Shown here: positions 190 through 6,750 of the stretch, one piece after another
Position numbering within the stretch: the first letter of the stretch is position 1
Layout: each line of letters starts with the position of its first letter
Virus record (IMG/VR): IMGVR_UViG_2690316278_000006
Direction: 5' to 3' (one strand)
DNA: 7,132 bases
Source of the DNA: a virus
Lineage: Duplodnaviria; Heunggongvirae; Uroviricota; Caudoviricetes
The notes under the pieces: model-generated
What the model saw: the letters and a program-made list of their open reading frames with translations, nothing else
What the model was told of the DNA's origin: nothing
Databases searched by the model: none
Position numbers and translations under genes: made by a program

Positions 190-699
190 TTAGCTAAAAA
201 AAGGCAACACGAAGCTAAAACTACCAACATAAAGTGCTGACCAGCTAGCAGCTGAAATCAGACTCACTGTATACACTTTCACTGGATGAAGTTGCAACAT
301 TCCTGCCACCAAAGGAGCAATATAACGCAGCACGGCGATAAAGCGCGAAGTGAAAAGTATTGACACAGAGTTATTTTGCAACTGAAGGCGAACCCGTTCT
401 ATTGTATTGGAACGGCTTGATATTATACATGCAAGTTGAGGGATATGCCCAATTATTATACCAAGATGGTAATTAACGATAGTACCGCACCATGCGCCAC
501 TCATGACCGTGATTCCAGCTTCCCATGGTGAAAGAGTCGTCTTGCTGACTGTAATTACAGTGGCCATCATAATTGATGCTGGTGGCAATATCGCCGAAAT
601 GAGTAAAGTGGATTTTGTGAACGCTATTATAAAAAGAAGCCCCCATAGGCGATATGGATGAAGTACAAAATAGTTCATCAAAGCATTTATCCACTCCAT
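190..699 (-). CDS. small inner-membrane protein, DedA/YqaA-like (putative prophage moron)
   Basis: Minus-strand ORF 190..702 (170 aa) in the track. Its first codon is TTG (702-700); the next codon is ATG (699-697), preceded on the minus strand by AAGGA about 9 nt upstream, so ATG is the likelier start. Stop is TAA (192-190). The protein is strongly hydrophobic and the stretch 'FTKSTLLISAILPPASIMMATVI...W...G...G..VNYHLG' resembles the DedA/YqaA core motif as I remember it. The gene is visibly AT-richer than the phage genes to its right (by eye, not computed). Confidence 0.6.
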   Translation of the reverse strand: MEWINALMNYFVLHPYRLWGLLFIIAFTKSTLLISAILPPASIMMATVITVSKTTLSPWEAGITVMSGAWCGTIVNYHLGIIIGHIPQLACIISSRSNTIERVRLQLQNNSVSILFTSRFIAVLRYIAPLVAGMLQLHPVKVYTVSLISAASWSALYVGSFSFVLPFFS

Positions 700-786
700 C
701 AATGTCTTTCCTTCTGTGAATTTTTCTTTGCTATTTAACCGTGATACGACTTAATTTAGGCTTAAACACCTTACATTTACAAGGTA

Positions 787-896: not shown

Positions 897-1370
897 ATGG
901 CAAAACCGGACTGGGAGGCCATCGAATCGGCATACCGGGCCGGAGTCCTTAGCCTCCGTGATATAGGCGAGAAATACGGCGTTACAGAAGGGGCTATCAG
1001 GAAGAGGGCCAAAAAGCTTGGTTGGGCACGCAGTGGCGGTACGCAGGTTTGCAAAAATGGTACGCAAAAAAGGAAAGTGCGTACCAGCAGAAAGCCTGCC
1101 ATTACTGGCCTTACACAAAAAAGTACGCAACTAAAAACAGAATCTACACCGGATACGAAACCGATACGCGGAATGCGTACCGATCCCCCGACTAACCCAT
1201 TCCAACCCGGTAACCAGCAGGCATTAAAACACGGTGGTTATGCCCGTCGCCTTCTGCTCAAAGATGAGGTGATAGAGGACGCTAAAGCGTTGACGCTCGA
1301 GGACGAATTATTTCGCCTTCGTGCTAACAACCTTGTCGCTGCAGAGAATATTGGTCGGTGGTTGGTGTCG
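897..1370 (+). CDS. phage terminase small subunit (3' end lost in N-run)
   Basis: ATG 897 has AGGAAG about 7 nt upstream. The N-terminus carries an HTH-like segment 'LSLRDIGEKYGVTEGAIRKRAKKLGW' followed by a basic region, typical of small terminase DNA-binding domains, and the gene sits immediately 5' of the large terminase. The track's 749-aa ORF 897..3146 is this gene fused to the next one through N codons; the true stop lies inside the gap 1371-1855. Confidence 0.7.
1038..1181. repeat. cluster of GTACGCA/TGCGTAC heptamers inside the small terminase gene, including a perfect 9-bp inverted repeat; candidate pac / terminase recognition site
   Basis: Exact heptamer copies: GTACGCA at 1039-1045, 1060-1066 and 1123-1129; inverted TGCGTAC at 1078-1084 and 1174-1180. 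TGGTACGCA (1058-1066) and TGCGTACCA (1078-1086) form a perfect 9-bp inverted repeat with an 11-nt A-rich spacer. Near-copies lie at 1025-1033 (GGCACGCAG) and 1163-1170 (GATACGCG). Only one other exact copy occurs in the rest of the window (3873-3879). Confidence 0.4.
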
Positions 1371-1856
1371 NNNNNNNNNNNNNNNNNNNNNNNNNNNNNN
1401 NNNNNNNNNNNNNNNNNNNNNNNNNNNNNNNNNNNNNNNNNNNNNNNNNNNNNNNNNNNNNNNNNNNNNNNNNNNNNNNNNNNNNNNNNNNNNNNNNNNN
1501 NNNNNNNNNNNNNNNNNNNNNNNNNNNNNNNNNNNNNNNNNNNNNNNNNNNNNNNNNNNNNNNNNNNNNNNNNNNNNNNNNNNNNNNNNNNNNNNNNNNN
1601 NNNNNNNNNNNNNNNNNNNNNNNNNNNNNNNNNNNNNNNNNNNNNNNNNNNNNNNNNNNNNNNNNNNNNNNNNNNNNNNNNNNNNNNNNNNNNNNNNNNN
1701 NNNNNNNNNNNNNNNNNNNNNNNNNNNNNNNNNNNNNNNNNNNNNNNNNNNNNNNNNNNNNNNNNNNNNNNNNNNNNNNNNNNNNNNNNNNNNNNNNNNN
1801 NNNNNNNNNNNNNNNNNNNNNNNNNNNNNNNNNNNNNNNNNNNNNNNNNNNNNNNG

Positions 1857-3146
1857 GATGCCGCTGGCATTGCCATATTTCTGTCGAATAAATACACCCT
1901 GCGTTTTTGTTGTGCCCGTCAGATCCAGAATAAAATCGAAGAGTCGGTGTATACCCTGCTCAAAATTCAGATAGACAGGTTTGGTCTGCGGCACCGTTTC
2001 CGTATTCTGAACAACAAAATCATTAACCGGGTTACTGGCTCGGAATTTGTTTTTTATGGATTATGGCGCAACATCGAAGAAATTAAGTCACTGGAGGGGA
2101 TCGATGTGTTGTGGCTGGAAGAAGCCCACGCACTGACGGAATACCAGTGGAAAATTCTGGAGCCAACGATCCGTAAAGAGGGTTCGGAATGCTGGTTCAT
2201 ATTCAACCCCGGACTTGTTACTGATTTCGTCTGGCGCAACTTCGTTGTTGATCCGCCCGAAGGCACTCTCATCCGCAAAATTAACTATGACGAAAATCCG
2301 TTTCTGTCTGACACCATGCTTAAGGTTATCGACGCGGCGCGACGCCGTGATCCGGATGGTTTTAAACATGTGTATGAGGGCGTTCCGGAGTCTGATGATG
2401 ATGCGGCAATCATCAAACTGTCTTGGATAGAAGCCGCAGTGGATGCGCACAAAACGTTAAATTTCGAACCCAGTGGAAGAAAGCGTATTGGCTTTGACGT
2501 GGCTGACAGTGGTACAGATAAGTGCGCTAACGTTTACCGTCACGGATCCGTTGTTTTCTGGGCCGACGAATGGAAGGCCAAAGAAGATGAATTACTGAAG
2601 AGCTGCCAGCGTACTTATCAGGCGGCGCTGGAGCGTGAAGCAGATATTGTTTACGACTCTATCGGTGTTGGTGCGTCTGCCGGTGCTAAATTCTCTGAAA
2701 TTAACGCTGACCGGAAGAGCGAGAACGCATACGCGCGACGTGTGAATTACCAGAGGTTTAACGCCGGTGCTGGTGTGCATGAGCCAGATGACGAGTACAA
2801 CGGCATCCCCAACAAAGACTTTTTCGCAAATCTTAAGGCTCAGGCATGGTGGCTGGTGGCTGACCGTTTCAGAAATACGTTTAACGCCATTAACAACGGA
2901 GAACAGTATCCTGTGGATGAGCTGATCAGCATAGATTCTCGTTGTCCGTTGCTTGAAAAGCTGAAACTGGAACTGACAACACCTCATCGTGATTTCGACC
3001 GTAACGGACGTGTGATGGTCGAAAGTAAAAAAGACCTCGCAAAACGCGAGATACCGTCACCAAACGTTGCTGATGCATTCATTATGGCCTTCGCGCCAAT
3101 CGATACATCGCTGGATATCTGGGAACAGCTGGGGAGACAGGCCTGA
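1857..3146 (+). CDS. phage terminase large subunit, PBSX-like family (5' end including Walker A lost in N-run)
   Basis: Open frame of about 430 codons from the gap edge to TGA 3144-3146. It contains a Walker-B-like 'IDVLWLEEAH' and a downstream acidic nuclease-domain-like segment 'IGFDVADSGTDK'. The stop overlaps the next start (ATGA at 3144-3148). The N-terminal ATPase part with the expected Walker A is presumably inside the gap. Confidence 0.85.
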   Translation, partial: DAAGIAIFLSNKYTLRFCCARQIQNKIEESVYTLLKIQIDRFGLRHRFRILNNKIINRVTGSEFVFYGLWRNIEEIKSLEGIDVLWLEEAHALTEYQWKILEPTIRKEGSECWFIFNPGLVTDFVWRNFVVDPPEGTLIRKINYDENPFLSDTMLKVIDAARRRDPDGFKHVYEGVPESDDDAAIIKLSWIEAAVDAHKTLNFEPSGRKRIGFDVADSGTDKCANVYRHGSVVFWADEWKAKEDELLKSCQRTYQAALEREADIVYDSIGVGASAGAKFSEINADRKSENAYARRVNYQRFNAGAGVHEPDDEYNGIPNKDFFANLKAQAWWLVADRFRNTFNAINNGEQYPVDELISIDSRCPLLEKLKLELTTPHRDFDRNGRVMVESKKDLAKREIPSPNVADAFIMAFAPIDTSLDIWEQLGRQA

Positions 3147-4612
3147 TGGCACGAAACAAACAAGCCCTGCGGCGAACTGTGCAGGCCACAGCTGATGGTT
3201 ATGAGAATTTTATTGCCCGCGTAGGGATGCAGACACCTAACCAGCACTCAGCATCCACCTACCGGGCTAATTTCACCAGTCGTAACCGCATGCTGGTGGA
3301 ATGGTCCTATCGTTCATCCTAGATCATCGGCGAAGCAGTCGATGCTATCCCGGATGATATGACCCGCAAAGGCATTCGCATCACTTCGGAAATTGATGCA
3401 AAAGATCGTGGCATTCTCGAATCACAACTGGATGAGTTGCAAATCTGGGATGCGCTGAATGACGTGCTGAAATGGTCGCGCCTCTACGGCGGCGCGGTGG
3501 GTTTCATCATGATTGAGGGGTAGGCACCAATGACCCCGCTGCGACCCGAAACCATCGGTAAGGGCAAGTTTAAGGGGATTCTCCCGCTCGACCGCTGGAT
3601 GGTCGACCCGGCACTGACCCGCCGCATTAAAGATATGGGGCCGGACCTGGGTAAACCTGAGTTTTACGATGTGGTGACCACAGCAACGGGAATTCCTGCC
3701 TGGCGCATTCATCACAGTCGCCTGATTCGCTTTGATGGCGTCACGTTGCCATTTCAGCAGAAGATGACCGAGAACGAATGGGGAATGTCGGTTGTAGAGC
3801 GTATCTGGGATCGTCTTACCGCGTTCGACAGCGCTACTGTCGGCGCGGCGCAGCTGGTCTACAAGGCGCATTTGCGTACCTACAGCGTGGAGAAGCTACG
3901 CGAGCTTATCGCACTTGGTGGTCCTGCGTATGAAGCGTTGCTGAAGAATATCGACCTGATTCGACAGTTCCAGAGTAATGAAGGCATGACGCTCATGGAC
4001 TCGCGGGATAAGTTTGAAACCCATCAGTACAGCTTCAGTGGTCTGGATGACATCCTTTCGCAGTTTGTAGAACAGATTAGTGGCGCTGTTGGTATCCCAC
4101 TGGTGCGGTTGTTCGGACAGTCCCCGAAAGGATTTTCTACCGGTGATGCAGACCTTGCCAACTATTACGATCGCATCAGTTCGTTGCAGGAGAGGCGTTT
4201 ACGTCTTCCGGTGCGGCGGATACTGGACATCATGCATCGTTCGGAACTTGGCAAGCCGCTGCCGGACGATTTCACGTTTGAGTTTAACCCGCTCTGGCAA
4301 ATGTCTGATGTCGATCGCTCAACGGTGGCGTTAAACACCACCAACGCAATCAGTACGGCGCTGGGTGATGGTCTGATGACACTGAAAGCCGCTATGACTG
4401 ATTTGCGAGAAAATTCTGACGTAACCGGCATCGGGGCATCCATTACCGACGAGGACATCGAGAATGCCGAAGATGAAGCGCCGCCCGGCATCGGCGAACC
4501 TGATGACGAACCGCAGGAGCCGTCAGGCGGAAATCCGGTATCGAACCAGCCTACGCAGGATAGCGAGGGCGGTCGGAGACATCGTAAATGGTCGCTACGA
4601 TGGTTCAAATGA
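3146..4612 (+). pseudogene. phage portal protein reading frame (489 codons) interrupted by two in-frame TAG codons
   Basis: One frame runs from ATG 3146 (GGGGAG about 9 nt upstream, start overlapping the terminase stop) to TGA 4610-4612, with no frameshift. It is broken only by TAG at 3320-3322 and TAG at 3521-3523, giving segments of 58, 66 and 360 aa that read as one continuous protein with an acidic C-terminal tail. Size and position directly after the large terminase fit a portal protein. Confidence 0.6.
3530..4612 (+). CDS. portal protein, longest uninterrupted segment (360 aa), possibly expressed as an N-truncated product
   Basis: ORF-track entry 3530..4612. ATG 3530 lies two codons after the second in-frame TAG and has GAGGGG about 9 nt upstream. 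It is in the same frame as 3146..3523, so it is most likely the C-terminal three quarters of the portal rather than an independent gene. Confidence 0.6.
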   Translation: MTPLRPETIGKGKFKGILPLDRWMVDPALTRRIKDMGPDLGKPEFYDVVTTATGIPAWRIHHSRLIRFDGVTLPFQQKMTENEWGMSVVERIWDRLTAFDSATVGAAQLVYKAHLRTYSVEKLRELIALGGPAYEALLKNIDLIRQFQSNEGMTLMDSRDKFETHQYSFSGLDDILSQFVEQISGAVGIPLVRLFGQSPKGFSTGDADLANYYDRISSLQERRLRLPVRRILDIMHRSELGKPLPDDFTFEFNPLWQMSDVDRSTVALNTTNAISTALGDGLMTLKAAMTDLRENSDVTGIGASITDEDIENAEDEAPPGIGEPDDEPQEPSGGNPVSNQPTQDSEGGRRHRKWSLRWFK

Positions 4613-5246
4613 CAGTATCACGGAAATTATTGCGGCGCTGGAGCGTTACAGTGAAATCATCACCCCCTGGGCGACAAAGGTCGCGGAAAACTTTACTGCG
4701 GACCTAACCCGGCAGAACGAGAAAGTTTGGCGGCAACACAGCAAGAACATCAGTCGCGAGCTCCGCAATCTTGTGGAAAGCGCTCCTGTGGGCCAGGTGA
4801 TGCAATCCATCATCGCCGAACAGGTCAAGTACATCAAATCTCTGCCTCTCGAGGCCGCAGACAGGGTGTACGACATCCAGAACAAAGCGATAGAGGCTGT
4901 TGTCACCGGTGGTCGGGCGGAGCAGTTTGCTAAAGAGATTGCATCTACCGGCGATGTTGCTAAGTCTAGGGCCGATCTGATTGCCCGAACGGAACTGGGA
5001 AGAGCAACGGGCGCGCTGGATATGGCCCGAGCGATAGCTATTGGCTCGGATGGTTATATTTGGCGTACAGCCGATGATGGCGATGTCCGAGATTCCCACG
5101 ATCACATGAAAGGTAAATTCGTCCGCTGGGATTCACCTCCAACTTTGGACGGCATGACCGGCCACGCGGGCGAGCTGCCAAACTGCCGCTGCTATAAAGA
5201 GATCGTGTTTGTTCGCGTTCCATTCGCAATGAAAAGGGCAGCATAA
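4464..5246 (+). CDS. phage head morphogenesis / minor capsid protein (Mu F / SPP1 gp7-like)
   Basis: ORF of 260 aa with GAGGA about 8 nt upstream of ATG 4464 and stop TAA 5244-5246. It contains 'WRTADDGDVRDSHDHMKGKFVRWD' (a D..VR..H type motif) and a C-terminal 'NCRCY', which I recognise as characteristic of this family. The 5' end overlaps the portal 3' end by 149 nt; alternative in-frame ATGs at 4473 and 4503 shorten the overlap only slightly. Confidence 0.8.
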   Translation: MPKMKRRPASANLMTNRRSRQAEIRYRTSLRRIARAVGDIVNGRYDGSNDSITEIIAALERYSEIITPWATKVAENFTADLTRQNEKVWRQHSKNISRELRNLVESAPVGQVMQSIIAEQVKYIKSLPLEAADRVYDIQNKAIEAVVTGGRAEQFAKEIASTGDVAKSRADLIARTELGRATGALDMARAIAIGSDGYIWRTADDGDVRDSHDHMKGKFVRWDSPPTLDGMTGHAGELPNCRCYKEIVFVRVPFAMKRAA

Positions 5247-5249
5247 CCC

Positions 5250-5798
5250 ATGAAATACTTTTTTGAGACCAGGCTCGGGGAAACCCGATACCGCCTGGCT
5301 GACGGCTCGTTGCTGTGCAAAGACGTGCCGATAGGACGAACAGGTAAGCAGCTCTATGGTGCTGATGACCTGCCAAAACTGAAACCCGATAAGTTCGGTG
5401 AAATAGTCGTCACGCGTTCTCCTGAGCAGGTATTCCATCCGGCCACGCTTGCCTCATTCGAAGGGATGAGCATCACGATCCTGCATCCTGAAGATGAAAA
5501 CGGGAATGTGCGGCTGGTAAATCCCGAGAACTGGAAAGAGCTTGCTGTCGGGCACCTCCAGAATGTCCGGCGCGGGACGGGTGAGCAGTCTGATTTGATG
5601 CTGGCTGACCTTATCGTCAAAGACGAAAGCGCCATTCAGCTTATCGAAGATGGCCTGCGCGAAGTGTCGTGCGGCTATGACGCGGAGTACGAGCAGACCG
5701 AGCCAGGTAAAGCCGAGCAGGTCGATATTACCGGAAACCATGTGGCTCTTGTCCCTAAAGGCAGAGCCGGAAATCGTTGTGCAATTGGAGACAGAGAC
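5250..5798 (+). CDS. phage head scaffold/protease-like protein, N-terminal part (DUF2213-like, from memory); 3' end in N-run
   Basis: ATG 5250 lies 4 nt after the upstream TAA. 183 codons are visible before the N-run. The N-terminal '[19 protein letters not shown]' resembles a motif I recall from DUF2213-type phage head proteins; this is uncertain without a profile search. Its position after the Mu-F-like gene is typical for a scaffold/protease. Confidence 0.6.
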
Positions 5799-6094
5799 NN
5801 NNNNNNNNNNNNNNNNNNNNNNNNNNNNNNNNNNNNNNNNNNNNNNNNNNNNNNNNNNNNNNNNNNNNNNNNNNNNNNNNNNNNNNNNNNNNNNNNNNNN
5901 NNNNNNNNNNNNNNNNNNNNNNNNNNNNNNNNNNNNNNNNNNNNNNNNNNNNNNNNNNNNNNNNNNNNNNNNNNNNNNNNNNNNNNNNNNNNNNNNNNNN
6001 NNNNNNNNNNNNNNNNNNNNNNNNNNNNNNNNNNNNNNNNNNNNNNNNNNNNNNNNNNNNNNNNNNNNNNNNNNNNNNNNNNNNNNNNNNNNNN

Positions 6095-6724: not shown

Positions 6725-6750
6725 NNNNNNNNNNNNNNNNNNNNNNNNNN

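What the first reader, a model, noticed from the sequence alone, without database searches (positions are those of the whole stretch)
1025..1181. Heptamer repeat cluster with a perfect 9-bp palindrome inside the small terminase gene (candidate pac site)
Five exact copies of GTACGCA or its reverse complement, plus near-copies, fall within about 150 bp; a given heptamer in either orientation would be expected far less than once in that span by chance. TGGTACGCA-11 nt-TGCGTACCA is a perfect inverted repeat. The mixed orientations argue for a DNA-level function rather than only a repeated peptide motif (GTQ/RT). In headful-packaging phages the pac site often lies within the small terminase gene as clustered short repeats, as in P1 and P22, and PBSX-type large terminases are usually associated with headful packaging.
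Basis: partly seen in the sequence, partly recalled or inferred. Interest (0 to 1): 0.5.

Follow-up and report, generated by a model that had tools for sequence, protein, structure and literature searches.

The report
Small-terminase binding-site array (candidate pac)
A cluster of GTACGCA repeats inside a prophage's small-terminase gene is very probably the set of DNA sites that this same protein's helix-turn-helix domain recognises to start genome packaging, because in hundreds of related phages the repeat sequence changes in step with the protein's DNA-reading helix.

Summary
In detail: five exact GTACGCA/TGCGTAC copies lie at 1039-1180 (0.64 expected in the whole window), with two nested perfect 9-nt inverted repeats. 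They lie in the 5' part of terS (PHROG 370) of a lambdoid E. coli prophage, in the codons for a predicted disordered linker just after a three-helix HTH.

The repeats act at the DNA level. The same heptamer is read as G-T-Q, as V-R and inverted as x-R-T. It keeps its wobble bases (Thr ACG 95% against 28% elsewhere). In Pantoea phage PdC23 it lies in non-coding DNA upstream of terS.

Across 163 distinct terS sequences from many bacterial orders, the repeat core changes with three residues of the recognition helix. EG..R pairs with GGTACGC, DT..R with GGTTCGC, HG..N with GGTATCC, HT..N with GGTTTCC, HQ..S with GGTTGCC and HV..x with GGTTACC. An unrelated N-domain carries TGCGAATTCGCA units instead.

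I conclude that this is an array of cognate TerS sites, most likely the recognition part of a pac site. It resembles P1 pac and lambda cosB in logic. Binding, the cut position and headful ends are untested. This copy's portal gene has two nonsense mutations, so the site is probably unused here. It is a new member of a known kind.

The parts
897..1370 (+). 5' part of the small terminase gene terS. The rest is masked by N in the window. The full gene is 765 nt (254 aa) in the 99.9% identical E. coli FDAARGOS_944 prophage, L005:9897-10661.
   Evidence: PHROG 370 'terminase small subunit', E = 7.5e-95. The gene lies between the lysis cassette plus a DedA moron and a PBSX-type terL. It has no Pfam or NCBIfam family and is annotated 'hypothetical protein' in RefSeq.
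912..1019 (+). Codons for the N-terminal three-helix HTH (aa 6-41). The recognition helix covers aa 31-41, EGAIRKRAKKL, at nt 987-1019.
   Evidence: The AlphaFold2 model has helices 6-15, 20-27 and 31-41 with pLDDT about 77-83. Pfam gives weak HTH hits to Sigma70_r4 and HTH_AsnC. Helix positions 31, 32 and 35 covary with the repeat core.
1026..1086 (+). Left block of the site array. It holds GCACGCA 1026-1032 (decayed), GTACGCA 1039-1045, GTTTGCA 1047-1053 (decayed), GTACGCA 1060-1066 and the inverted TGCGTAC 1078-1084. It includes the 9-nt inverted repeat 1058-1066 / 1078-1086.
   Evidence: The Klebsiella relatives have exact GTACGCA at all of these positions, at gene nt 130, 143, 151, 164(/176) and 182/194.
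1111..1129 (+). Right block, direct copies: TTACACA 1111-1117 (decayed; CGTACGCA in relatives) and GTACGCA 1123-1129.
   Evidence: gene nt 215/227/239 in relatives. The 12-nt insertions and deletions between relatives add or remove whole units.
1174..1182 (-). Distal inverted copy TGCGTACCG. It is the partner of CGGTACGCA at 1037-1045 in the outer 9-nt inverted repeat.
   Evidence: It is present at gene nt 266-302 in most window-type relatives but absent in Chronis. It lies outside the swapped N-domain module, so its membership in the array is less certain.
1029..1259 (+). Codons for the predicted disordered linker (aa 45-121) that hosts the array.
   Evidence: AlphaFold2 pLDDT is below 50 for aa 45-104 and 106-121. 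A confident helical hairpin follows at aa 114-204.
1856..3146 (+). Large terminase terL (its 5' end is masked), the enzyme expected to cut near the array.
   Evidence: Pfam Terminase_3 (PF04466), E = 2.6e-31 for the window fragment and 3.9e-38 for the full L005 gene.

Best explanation
The GTACGCA cluster at about 1026-1182 is an array of binding sites for the helix-turn-helix domain of the small terminase encoded by the same gene. The sites are written into the codons of the protein's own disordered linker, directly downstream of the HTH-coding segment.

In the proposed mechanism, the several HTH domains of a TerS oligomer bind the several copies, direct and inverted and mostly 8-18 bp apart. 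This marks the phage concatemer as the packaging substrate and serves as the recognition part of a pac site. TerS then positions the Terminase_3-type TerL for the first cut nearby, and packaging proceeds by the headful.

Shown here: the cluster exists; it is conserved as DNA rather than as peptide; and it co-varies with the recognition helix.

Inferred: physical binding, the role in packaging initiation, where the cut falls, and headful ends.

In this particular prophage the portal gene is inactivated, so the site is probably a still-intact relic.
For: (1) Statistics. Five exact copies lie in 142 bp, against 0.64 expected per 7.1 kb. No randomisation reaches this, even over all 7-mers.

(2) Position. 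In 80 related viral loci, 502 of 531 GTACGCA occurrences fall between +100 and +299 of terS, and 79 of 80 loci have at least 3 copies there. In whole genomes, Mulock has 11 copies with 7 of them in 160 bp of terS, and HK639 has 10 with 4 in terS; the rest are singletons at background frequency.

(3) DNA-level conservation.
- The heptamer is read as xGT-ACG-CAx (G/S/R-T-Q) and as GTA-CGC-A (V-R), and inverted as x-R-T, within one gene.
- In the unrelated TerS body PHROG 1206 (GF-2, HK639, SEN34, Erwinia 49) it is read only as V-R.
- In Pantoea phage PdC23 three copies lie in non-coding DNA upstream of the ATG.
- Wobble bases are fixed. Thr in TQ is ACG in 228 of 239 cases, against 271 of 982 elsewhere. 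Val in VR is GTA in 190 of 241, against 121 of 522. Arg is CGC in 225 of 241, against 289 of 885.
- The octamers are at least 97% invariant while the spacers vary.
- Copy number changes by whole 12-nt units.

Among 163 distinct sequences from viromes, GenBank phages and 80 bacterial species, helix residues 31/32/35 predict the repeat core:
- EG/DG..R gives GGTACGC (83 of 86).
- HG/HS..N gives GGTATCC (36 of 37).
- HT..N/S/G gives GGTTTCC (9 of 9).
- DT..R gives GGTTCGC (6 of 6).
- HQ..S gives GGTTGCC (6 of 6).
- HV..x gives GGTTACC.
- HA..L gives GGTAACC.
All three tandem copies change together. A fourth, inverted copy inside the conserved SERxLIEA codons changes too: GCGTAC(V), GGATAC(I), GCGAAC(E), GGCAAC(Q). 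The GTA to GTT switch is synonymous. The same pairs recur in Enterobacterales, Pseudomonas and Burkholderiales.

(5) Modularity. RothC has the same TerS body as Chronis but a different N-domain, and it carries TGCGAATTCGCA units instead. The GTACGCA module is joined to PHROG 370 and PHROG 1206 bodies and to different TerL types.

(6) Structure. AlphaFold2 puts the covarying residues on helix 3 of a three-helix HTH and puts the array in the disordered-linker codons.

(7) Precedent. P1 pac consists of seven hexamers inside pacA (PMC10028697). P22 pac lies inside terS and can be disabled by wobble mutations (PMC11260489). Lambda and phage 21 differ in specificity through the recognition helix and the cosB R sites (PMC4669245). 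Erwinia phages 49 and 59, which carry this module, are reported as headful packagers (PMC7317114).
Against: - There is no experimental datum for any member: no gel shift, no footprint, no mapped virion ends. The Mulock genome paper says nothing on packaging.
- The covariation shows specific recognition by TerS, not what that recognition is used for.
- The sequences are phylogenetically related, so the counts overstate the number of independent events.
- In this window three of the eight ancestral positions have decayed, and the portal gene has two nonsense mutations. The site may be non-functional here.
- The inverted copies also give a stable mRNA hairpin (z = -2.5).
- A few members with the module show no clean repeats: Pseudoalteromonas phage Y7, Shewanella phage Y11, L326 and L336.
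- The distal inverted copy at 1174 lies outside the swapped module and is missing in Chronis.
Confidence: 0.8

Rival explanations
1. The repeats are only a by-product of a repetitive, low-complexity peptide (GTQ/VR/RT) in the linker. They would have arisen by slippage or duplication of coding units and have no function as DNA.
For: The region encodes a predicted disordered, basic, repetitive linker. Copy number changes by in-frame 12-nt units.
Against: The same heptamer is used in two frames and on both strands. It is non-coding in PdC23. Its wobble positions are fixed. The encoded residue changes (VR, VS, VA; V/I/E/Q) whenever the HTH helix changes.
Confidence: 0.03
2. The inverted copies form an mRNA or single-stranded DNA hairpin that controls translation or stability of the terS-terL message. 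The direct copies would be incidental.
For: The perfect 9-bp stems at 1058-1086 and 1037-1182 exist. RNA folding of 1030-1190 gives z = -2.5, with 1 of 200 shuffles folding as well.
Against: Most copies are direct, not inverted. Chronis has seven direct copies and no exact inverted one. No Rfam family matches. A hairpin does not explain why the base identity tracks the amino acids of the recognition helix.
Confidence: 0.05
3. TerS does bind the array, but for a purpose other than starting packaging. Examples would be autoregulation of terS/terL expression or nucleation of TerS assembly, with the true cut and recognition site lying elsewhere.
For: Covariation proves recognition, not purpose. 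The cut site is unknown. N15 has a non-essential accessory TerS site (rR2) inside its terS gene (PMC4669245).
Against: The only established role of sequence-specific DNA binding by TerS is packaging-site recognition (PMC13595956, PMC11260489). No other repeat cluster of the motif exists in two complete genomes. The P1 and P22 precedents place pac inside the terS gene (PMC10028697, PMC11260489).
Confidence: 0.1
4. The heptamers are sites for another protein, such as a host factor, a restriction or modification enzyme, or a phage regulator.
For: GTAC and CGTACG are palindromic cores of known restriction sites (my own knowledge, not tested).
Against: The motif changes with the TerS helix across hosts from several orders. 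It is not enriched elsewhere in the phage genomes. There is no IHF consensus and no Dam site within the repeats.
Confidence: 0.02

Closest known systems
Bacteriophage P1 pac site in pacA (seven TGATCA/G hexamers in blocks HEX4 and HEX3, with an IHF site and the cleavage site between them)
   Same: Both have short repeats of 6-7 bp. Both are arranged in two blocks within about 160 bp, inside the 5' part of the small-terminase gene and downstream of its DNA-binding region. In P1 the site can be disabled by synonymous mutations (PMC10028697).
   Different: The motif differs and has no GATC, so there is no Dam-methylation control. No IHF consensus lies between the blocks. The orientations are mixed. 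The TerL is Terminase_3 type. Homology of TerS to PacA was not tested.
Lambda-type cosB: R3/R2/R1 sites read by the gpNu1 winged HTH, with distinct lambda, 21 and N15 specificities
   Same: Several copies of a TerS site occur, one of them inverted. Specificity is set by a few recognition-helix residues matched to a few bases of the site. Natural specificity classes exist (PMC4669245).
   Different: Lambda sites are non-coding, lie beside cosN and serve cos (unit-length) packaging with a GpA-type TerL and IHF. Here the sites lie within coding DNA, the TerL is Terminase_3, there is no sign of cohesive ends, and at least 8 specificity classes are seen rather than 3.
P22 pac site inside gene 3 (terS)
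   Same: The recognition site is embedded in the terS open reading frame of a lambdoid, headful-packaging enterobacterial phage. Wobble mutations separate the site from the protein (PMC11260489).
   Different: P22 is described as using a single pac sequence rather than an array of 3-9 short repeats. The TerS families are unrelated: no shared PHROG appears among the hits.
SPP1/SF6 pac and the G1P small terminase
   Same: A ring of HTH motifs engages an extended pac region that contains repeated elements (abstract of PMC4737164, listed).
   Different: For SF6 the authors report recognition through multiple sequence-independent HTH contacts (PMC4737164). Here the helix/base covariation argues for direct, sequence-specific readout.

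Membership tests
pac site (TerS recognition site of a headful-packaging tailed phage) | Lies in or next to the terS gene at the head of a terS-terL-portal operon | tested here: met
   The gene order is terS (PHROG 370), Terminase_3 terL, portal, MuF-like protein, scaffold.
pac site (TerS recognition site of a headful-packaging tailed phage) | Specifically recognised by the cognate small terminase | tested here: met
   The test is indirect. The repeat core covaries with recognition-helix residues in 163 distinct sequences and at least 8 classes. The motif is replaced when the N-domain is replaced. Physical binding was not tested.
pac site (TerS recognition site of a headful-packaging tailed phage) | The first terminase cut and the packaging series start at or near the site | not testable with these tools
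   No virion-end or coverage data were available. The Mulock paper is silent on packaging.
pac site (TerS recognition site of a headful-packaging tailed phage) | Virion DNA is terminally redundant and circularly permuted (headful) | not testable with these tools
   Only a literature lead exists. Erwinia phages 49 and 59, which carry the same N-domain and GTACGCA copies, are reported as headful packagers (PMC7317114). Their TerL matches no Pfam family, unlike the window's Terminase_3 TerL.
P1-type pac (PacA/PacB pacase) | Two blocks of a short repeated motif within about 160 bp of the 5' part of the small-terminase gene | tested here: met
   The blocks are 1026-1086 and 1111-1182. The P1 description is from PMC10028697.
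P1-type pac (PacA/PacB pacase) | The repeats contain GATC, so that Dam methylation controls cleavage | tested here: not met
   There is no GATC in any heptamer. The only nearby GATC is at 1182-1185.
P1-type pac (PacA/PacB pacase) | An IHF site between the two repeat blocks | tested here: not met
   WATCAANNNNTTR has no match with up to 1 mismatch between 857 and 7112.
Lambda-type cos (cosB R sites plus cosN) | GpA-type large terminase and a cosN nicking site giving cohesive ends | tested here: not met
   The TerL matches Pfam Terminase_3 (PF04466) and not a GpA-type family. The presence of cosN was not assessed.
Lambda-type cos (cosB R sites plus cosN) | Specificity is set by matched changes in the TerS recognition helix and its repeated sites | tested here: met
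   The lambda, 21 and N15 precedent is in PMC4669245. This is a resemblance in logic, not evidence of homology.
Small terminase with an N-terminal HTH, a linker and a helical oligomerisation core | Three-helix HTH at the N-terminus and a long helical core | tested here: met
   The AlphaFold2 model has helices 6-15, 20-27 and 31-41, a disordered stretch at 45-121, and a hairpin at 114-204 with pLDDT 85-95. No solved homologue was found by sequence, and the Foldseek search was uninformative.

The most novel reading that the evidence does not exclude
The HTH domain and its own target array, written into the codons of the adjacent linker, form one portable 'packaging-specificity cassette'. This cassette has diversified into at least eight specificities through a simple, readable code. 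Helix residue 32 sets base 4: G, S or A pairs with A, and T, Q, V or P pairs with T. Residues 31 and 35 set bases 5-6: E/D with R pairs with CG, and H with N pairs with TC. The cassette is shuffled among unrelated TerS bodies and TerL types across Proteobacteria. A plausible selective pressure is packaging exclusivity between co-resident prophages or against satellites. If so, pac sites of thousands of unstudied prophages could be predicted from the sequence alone and re-targeted by design.
Probability: 0.45. Interest if true: 0.75.

Novelty: new member of a known kind. Interest (0 to 1): 0.6.

Why it matters
Pac sites have been defined experimentally for only a handful of phages. How a ring of TerS HTH motifs picks out viral DNA is still debated, between sequence-specific readout and recognition of DNA shape.

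This family offers a natural experiment. The same small HTH occurs with at least eight different, internally consistent site sequences, in hundreds of prophages of Escherichia, Klebsiella, Salmonella, Pseudomonas and others. That makes the recognition rule directly testable by mutagenesis.

It would also allow prediction of where lateral and generalized transduction start in clinically important Enterobacterales prophages. It suggests a compact element of about 250 bp for building or re-targeting packageable plasmids. Finally, it assigns a name and a function to a gene that RefSeq and most GenBank records still call 'hypothetical protein'.

Tried and rejected
- Databases for TerS. Pfam gave only weak, sub-threshold HTH hits, and NCBIfam gave no hit. 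The PDB sequence search found no homologue. Foldseek against PDB with the AlphaFold2 model returned only generic coiled-coil matches with E > 0.1, so it was discarded.
- RNA. Rfam has no family in the window.
- Literature. No paper connects GTACGCA with a terminase. The Mulock paper has no packaging data. Two searches on TerS, pac and recognition helix found only the lambda/21/N15, SF6, P1 and P22 precedents.
- Near-copies GATACGA and GATACGC (1152-1169). I rejected these as array members because the identical DNA is present in RothC, which has a different N-domain and motif.
- One-mismatch copies are not enriched window-wide.
- P1-like features. An IHF site and Dam sites are absent.
- Phage tRNAs. 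I considered a link between the phage tRNA genes and the forced ACG and CGC codons, but the anticodons are Thr-UGU and Arg-UCU, so I dropped it.
- The 749-aa 'ORF 897..3146' is an artefact. The N mask is 485 N where the homologue has 354 nt, and it fuses terS and terL.

Full report
**Observation**

The window holds GTACGCA or its complement at 1039, 1060, 1078 (-), 1123 and 1174 (-), plus one singleton at 3873. That is six copies against 0.64 expected, and no shuffle reached six. I scanned all 7-mers for the densest cluster in any 160 bp. This cluster, with five copies, is the maximum in the window. In 300 Markov randomisations the maximum was 2-4.

Two perfect 9-nt inverted repeats are nested: TGGTACGCA/TGCGTACCA at 1058-1086 and CGGTACGCA/TGCGTACCG at 1037-1182. 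One-mismatch copies are not enriched across the whole window.

**Context**

The window is 99.9% identical to a lambdoid prophage found in four complete E. coli genomes. In E. coli FDAARGOS_944 the gene order is holin, lysozyme, lysis protein, a DedA-family moron on the opposite strand, a 254-aa 'hypothetical protein', a PBSX-family large terminase, a DUF1073 portal, a MuF-like protein, DUF2213 and a DUF2184 capsid protein.

The 254-aa protein is a small terminase: PHROG 370, E = 7.5e-95. It has no Pfam or NCBIfam family. The long ORF 897..3146 listed is an artefact, because the N run at 1371-1855 replaces only 354 nt of the real sequence.

An AlphaFold2 model of a 96%-identical homologue shows three short N-terminal helices (6-15, 20-27, 31-41; pLDDT about 80). 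A stretch of very low confidence follows (aa 45-121), and then a confident helical hairpin (114-204). The heptamer cluster, at gene nt 130-286, lies in the codons of the low-confidence linker, directly after the HTH.

**The repeats are conserved as DNA, not as peptide**

- *More copies in relatives.* Klebsiella phages that are 82-87% identical (Mulock, Chronis and several ST-named prophages) have more copies. They carry up to seven or nine exact heptamers, at positions where the E. coli gene has decayed versions (GCACGCA, GTTTGCA, TTACACA). They differ from one another by 12-nt insertions or deletions that add or remove one unit.
- *Several frames and both strands.* Within one gene the heptamer is read as xGT-ACG-CAx (G/S/R-T-Q), as GTA-CGC-A (V-R-K) and, inverted, as x-CGT-ACC (A/V/M-R-T).
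- *Sharp positional concentration.* In 80 viral contigs recovered with the N-domain, 502 of 531 occurrences in about 5 kb per locus fall between +100 and +299 of terS. Of the 80 loci, 79 have at least three copies there.
- *Background elsewhere.* In the complete Mulock genome 7 of 11 copies lie within 160 bp of terS. In HK639 it is 4 of 10. The remainder are singletons at about the expected background.
- *Fixed wobble bases.* Thr before Gln in the linker is ACG in 228 of 239 cases, against 28% for other Thr codons of the same genes. In the second TerS family, Val-Arg is GTA-CGC in about 80-93% of cases, against 23-33% elsewhere. These counts are descriptive, because the sequences are related.
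- *A non-coding example.* In Pantoea phage PdC23 the TerS has the same recognition helix, but the motif is not in the linker. Three copies (aGGTACGCAaaatTGCGTACtTGCGTACtt) lie in the non-coding DNA just upstream of the terS start codon.

The same N-terminal domain (MAKPDWEAIE.AYRAG..S.R.I......GAIRKRAK) is fused to a different TerS body, PHROG 1206. This occurs in Edwardsiella phage GF-2, Escherichia phage HK639, Salmonella phage SEN34, Erwinia phages 49 and 59, and many Pseudomonas, Acidovorax and Enterobacter phages. There the motif forms three tandem octamers, 15 and 12 nt apart, plus a fourth inverted copy about 26 nt further on.

Variants of helix 3 carry different octamers at the same positions:

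| Helix 3 | Octamer |
|---|---|
| ISEGAIRKRAK | GGTACGCA |
| ISDTAIRKRAK | GGTTCGCA |
| ITHGAINKRAK | GGTATCCA |
| V[TS]HTAI[SN]KRAK | GGTTTCCA |
| ITHQAISKRAK | GGTTGCCA |
| VNHATILKRAN | GGTAACCA |
| VSHV.I.KRAK | GGTTACC or GGTTAAC |

All three direct copies change together. The inverted copy changes as well, even though it lies in an otherwise conserved SERxLIEA segment: GCGTAC (Val), GGATAC (Ile), GCGAAC (Glu), GGCAAC (Gln). The change from GTA-CGC to GTT-CGC is synonymous, so selection on the peptide cannot explain it.

I then scanned one genome for each of 185,579 species, which added 80 loci from Enterobacterales, Pseudomonadales, Burkholderiales, Xanthomonadales and others. Pooling all sources gives 163 distinct sequences, with these results:

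| Helix residues 31/32/35 | Repeat core | Count |
|---|---|---|
| EG/DG..R | GGTACGC | 83 of 86 (2 more have GGTACGA) |
| HG/HS..N | GGTATCC | 36 of 37 |
| HT..N/S/G | GGTTTCC | 9 of 9 |
| DT..R | GGTTCGC | 6 of 6 |
| HQ..S | GGTTGCC | 6 of 6 |
| HV..x and HP..T | GGTTACC | about 10 |

The same pairs recur in distant host orders, in flanks that are otherwise diverged. Within a class the octamers are at least 97% invariant while the spacers vary. The three covarying residues (i, i+1, i+4) would lie on one face of helix 3 of the model. That geometric point is my inference, not a computed result.

**Modularity**

Klebsiella phage RothC has the same TerS body as Chronis, and their DNA is identical from about gene nt 268 onward. 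RothC has a different N-terminal domain and no GTACGCA. It has palindromic TGCGAATTCGCA units instead.

Eighty further loci with the RothC-type domain show TTCGCA/TGCGAA at +100..+199 in 448 of 594 occurrences. That domain is joined to PHROG 370 and PHROG 51 bodies.

The GTACGCA module is found with Terminase_3 TerL (this window, GF-2) and with TerLs that match no Pfam family (HK639, Erwinia 49). RothC's TerL is Terminase_6N. So the DNA-binding domain and its sites travel together as one cassette.

**Mechanism**

The best-supported reading is that the array is the cognate binding site of TerS, and so the recognition part of a pac site. In the proposed sequence, several HTH domains of the TerS oligomer bind several copies. 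TerL is then recruited and cuts nearby, and packaging proceeds by the headful.

Established precedents are:
- P1 pac, seven hexamers in two blocks inside pacA (PMC10028697);
- P22 pac inside terS, which can be disabled by wobble mutations (PMC11260489);
- the lambda, 21 and N15 specificities, set by the recognition helix and the cosB R sites (PMC4669245).

Erwinia phages 49 and 59, which carry the module, are reported as headful packagers (PMC7317114).

Not shown here are binding, the cut position, the direction of packaging and the type of DNA ends.

**Rivals**

- A pure peptide repeat is contradicted by the frame, strand, wobble, non-coding and covariation evidence above.
- An mRNA hairpin is possible, because the inverted copies fold well (z = -2.5). 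It does not explain the direct copies or the covariation, and no Rfam family matches.
- A TerS site with a non-packaging role cannot be excluded, and I give it about 0.1.
- A site for another protein is unlikely, given the covariation and the absence of Dam or IHF motifs.

**State of this copy**

Compared with the intact homologue, the window's portal gene has two nonsense changes: G to A at 3321 (W59*) and C to T at 3521 (Q126*). These are 2 of only 7 substitutions across the 5.3 kb compared, the terS–MuF stretch at 1-1370 and 1856-5798. This prophage is therefore probably unable to package DNA by itself, and the array here is a relic that is still largely intact.

**Novelty**

The kind of element is known: a TerS recognition array inside terS. 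I found no description of this motif, of this TerS family's site, or of the helix/base code in the searchable literature. That library is incomplete, and older subscription papers on P22-like and Sf6 terminases could not be searched.

I file it as a new member of a known kind, with interest 0.6. The interest comes mainly from the natural specificity series, which makes TerS-pac recognition directly testable and pac sites predictable.

Noticed in passing
window 3146-4612 (changes at 3321 and 3521): The portal gene carries two nonsense substitutions relative to the intact homologue in E. coli FDAARGOS_944: G to A giving W59*, and C to T giving Q126*. These are 2 of only 7 differences in about 5.3 kb. 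This prophage copy is probably defective for packaging.
   Followed up: yes
window 1371-1855, 5799-6094, 6725-6750: The N runs do not preserve true length. The 485 N at 1371-1855 stand for 354 nt in the homologue. As a result terS and terL appear fused into a false 749-aa ORF (897..3146).
   Followed up: yes
window 190-702 (-): A DedA/VTT-family membrane protein gene lies on the opposite strand between the lysis cassette and terS. It looks like a moron inserted at the late-operon junction. It is present in only some relatives.
   Followed up: partly
L013:455-1195 and L188-L267 (gene nt 130-190): A second, unrelated TerS N-domain (GISPKDWC.AQGLNY..AKRYIK) carries its own repeats, the palindromic units TGCGAATTCGCA, which contain an EcoRI site. 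It is joined to at least two TerS bodies (PHROG 370 and PHROG 51). Whether it is related to P1 PacA was not tested.
   Followed up: partly
L184:831-857 and 950-956 (Pantoea phage PdC23): PdC23 has the same recognition helix as the window's TerS. Its GTACGCA copies lie in non-coding DNA upstream of terS rather than in the linker codons.
   Followed up: yes
L110:1501-1740: This locus has three direct GGTTTCC copies that match its HT..S helix. Its inverted fourth copy is GGCAAC, the sequence of the HQ..S class, and an extra direct GGTTTCC lies nearby. This looks like the footprint of a recombination event between specificity classes.
   Followed up: no
L182, L183, L326, L336: A few TerS genes with a related N-domain show no clean repeat triple. 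These include Pseudoalteromonas phage Y7 and Shewanella phage Y11. Y7 has two AAGACGC[AG]AT units. Their sites may be degenerate or located elsewhere.
   Followed up: no
L048:2501-2840: This terS is frameshifted and truncated to 113 aa, yet it keeps all eight heptamers at the usual DNA positions.
   Followed up: no
window 1053-1058, 1066-1071, 1117-1122, 1133-1137: A5-A6 tracts flank several heptamers. They may contribute intrinsic bending, as proposed for other pac sites. Their phasing was not analysed.
   Followed up: no
L005:6932-7242 and L186:41024-41343: The prophage and Mulock carry tRNA clusters that include Thr(UGU) and Arg(UCU). Neither matches the ACG and CGC codons imposed by the heptamer, so there is no evident link.
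   Followed up: yes
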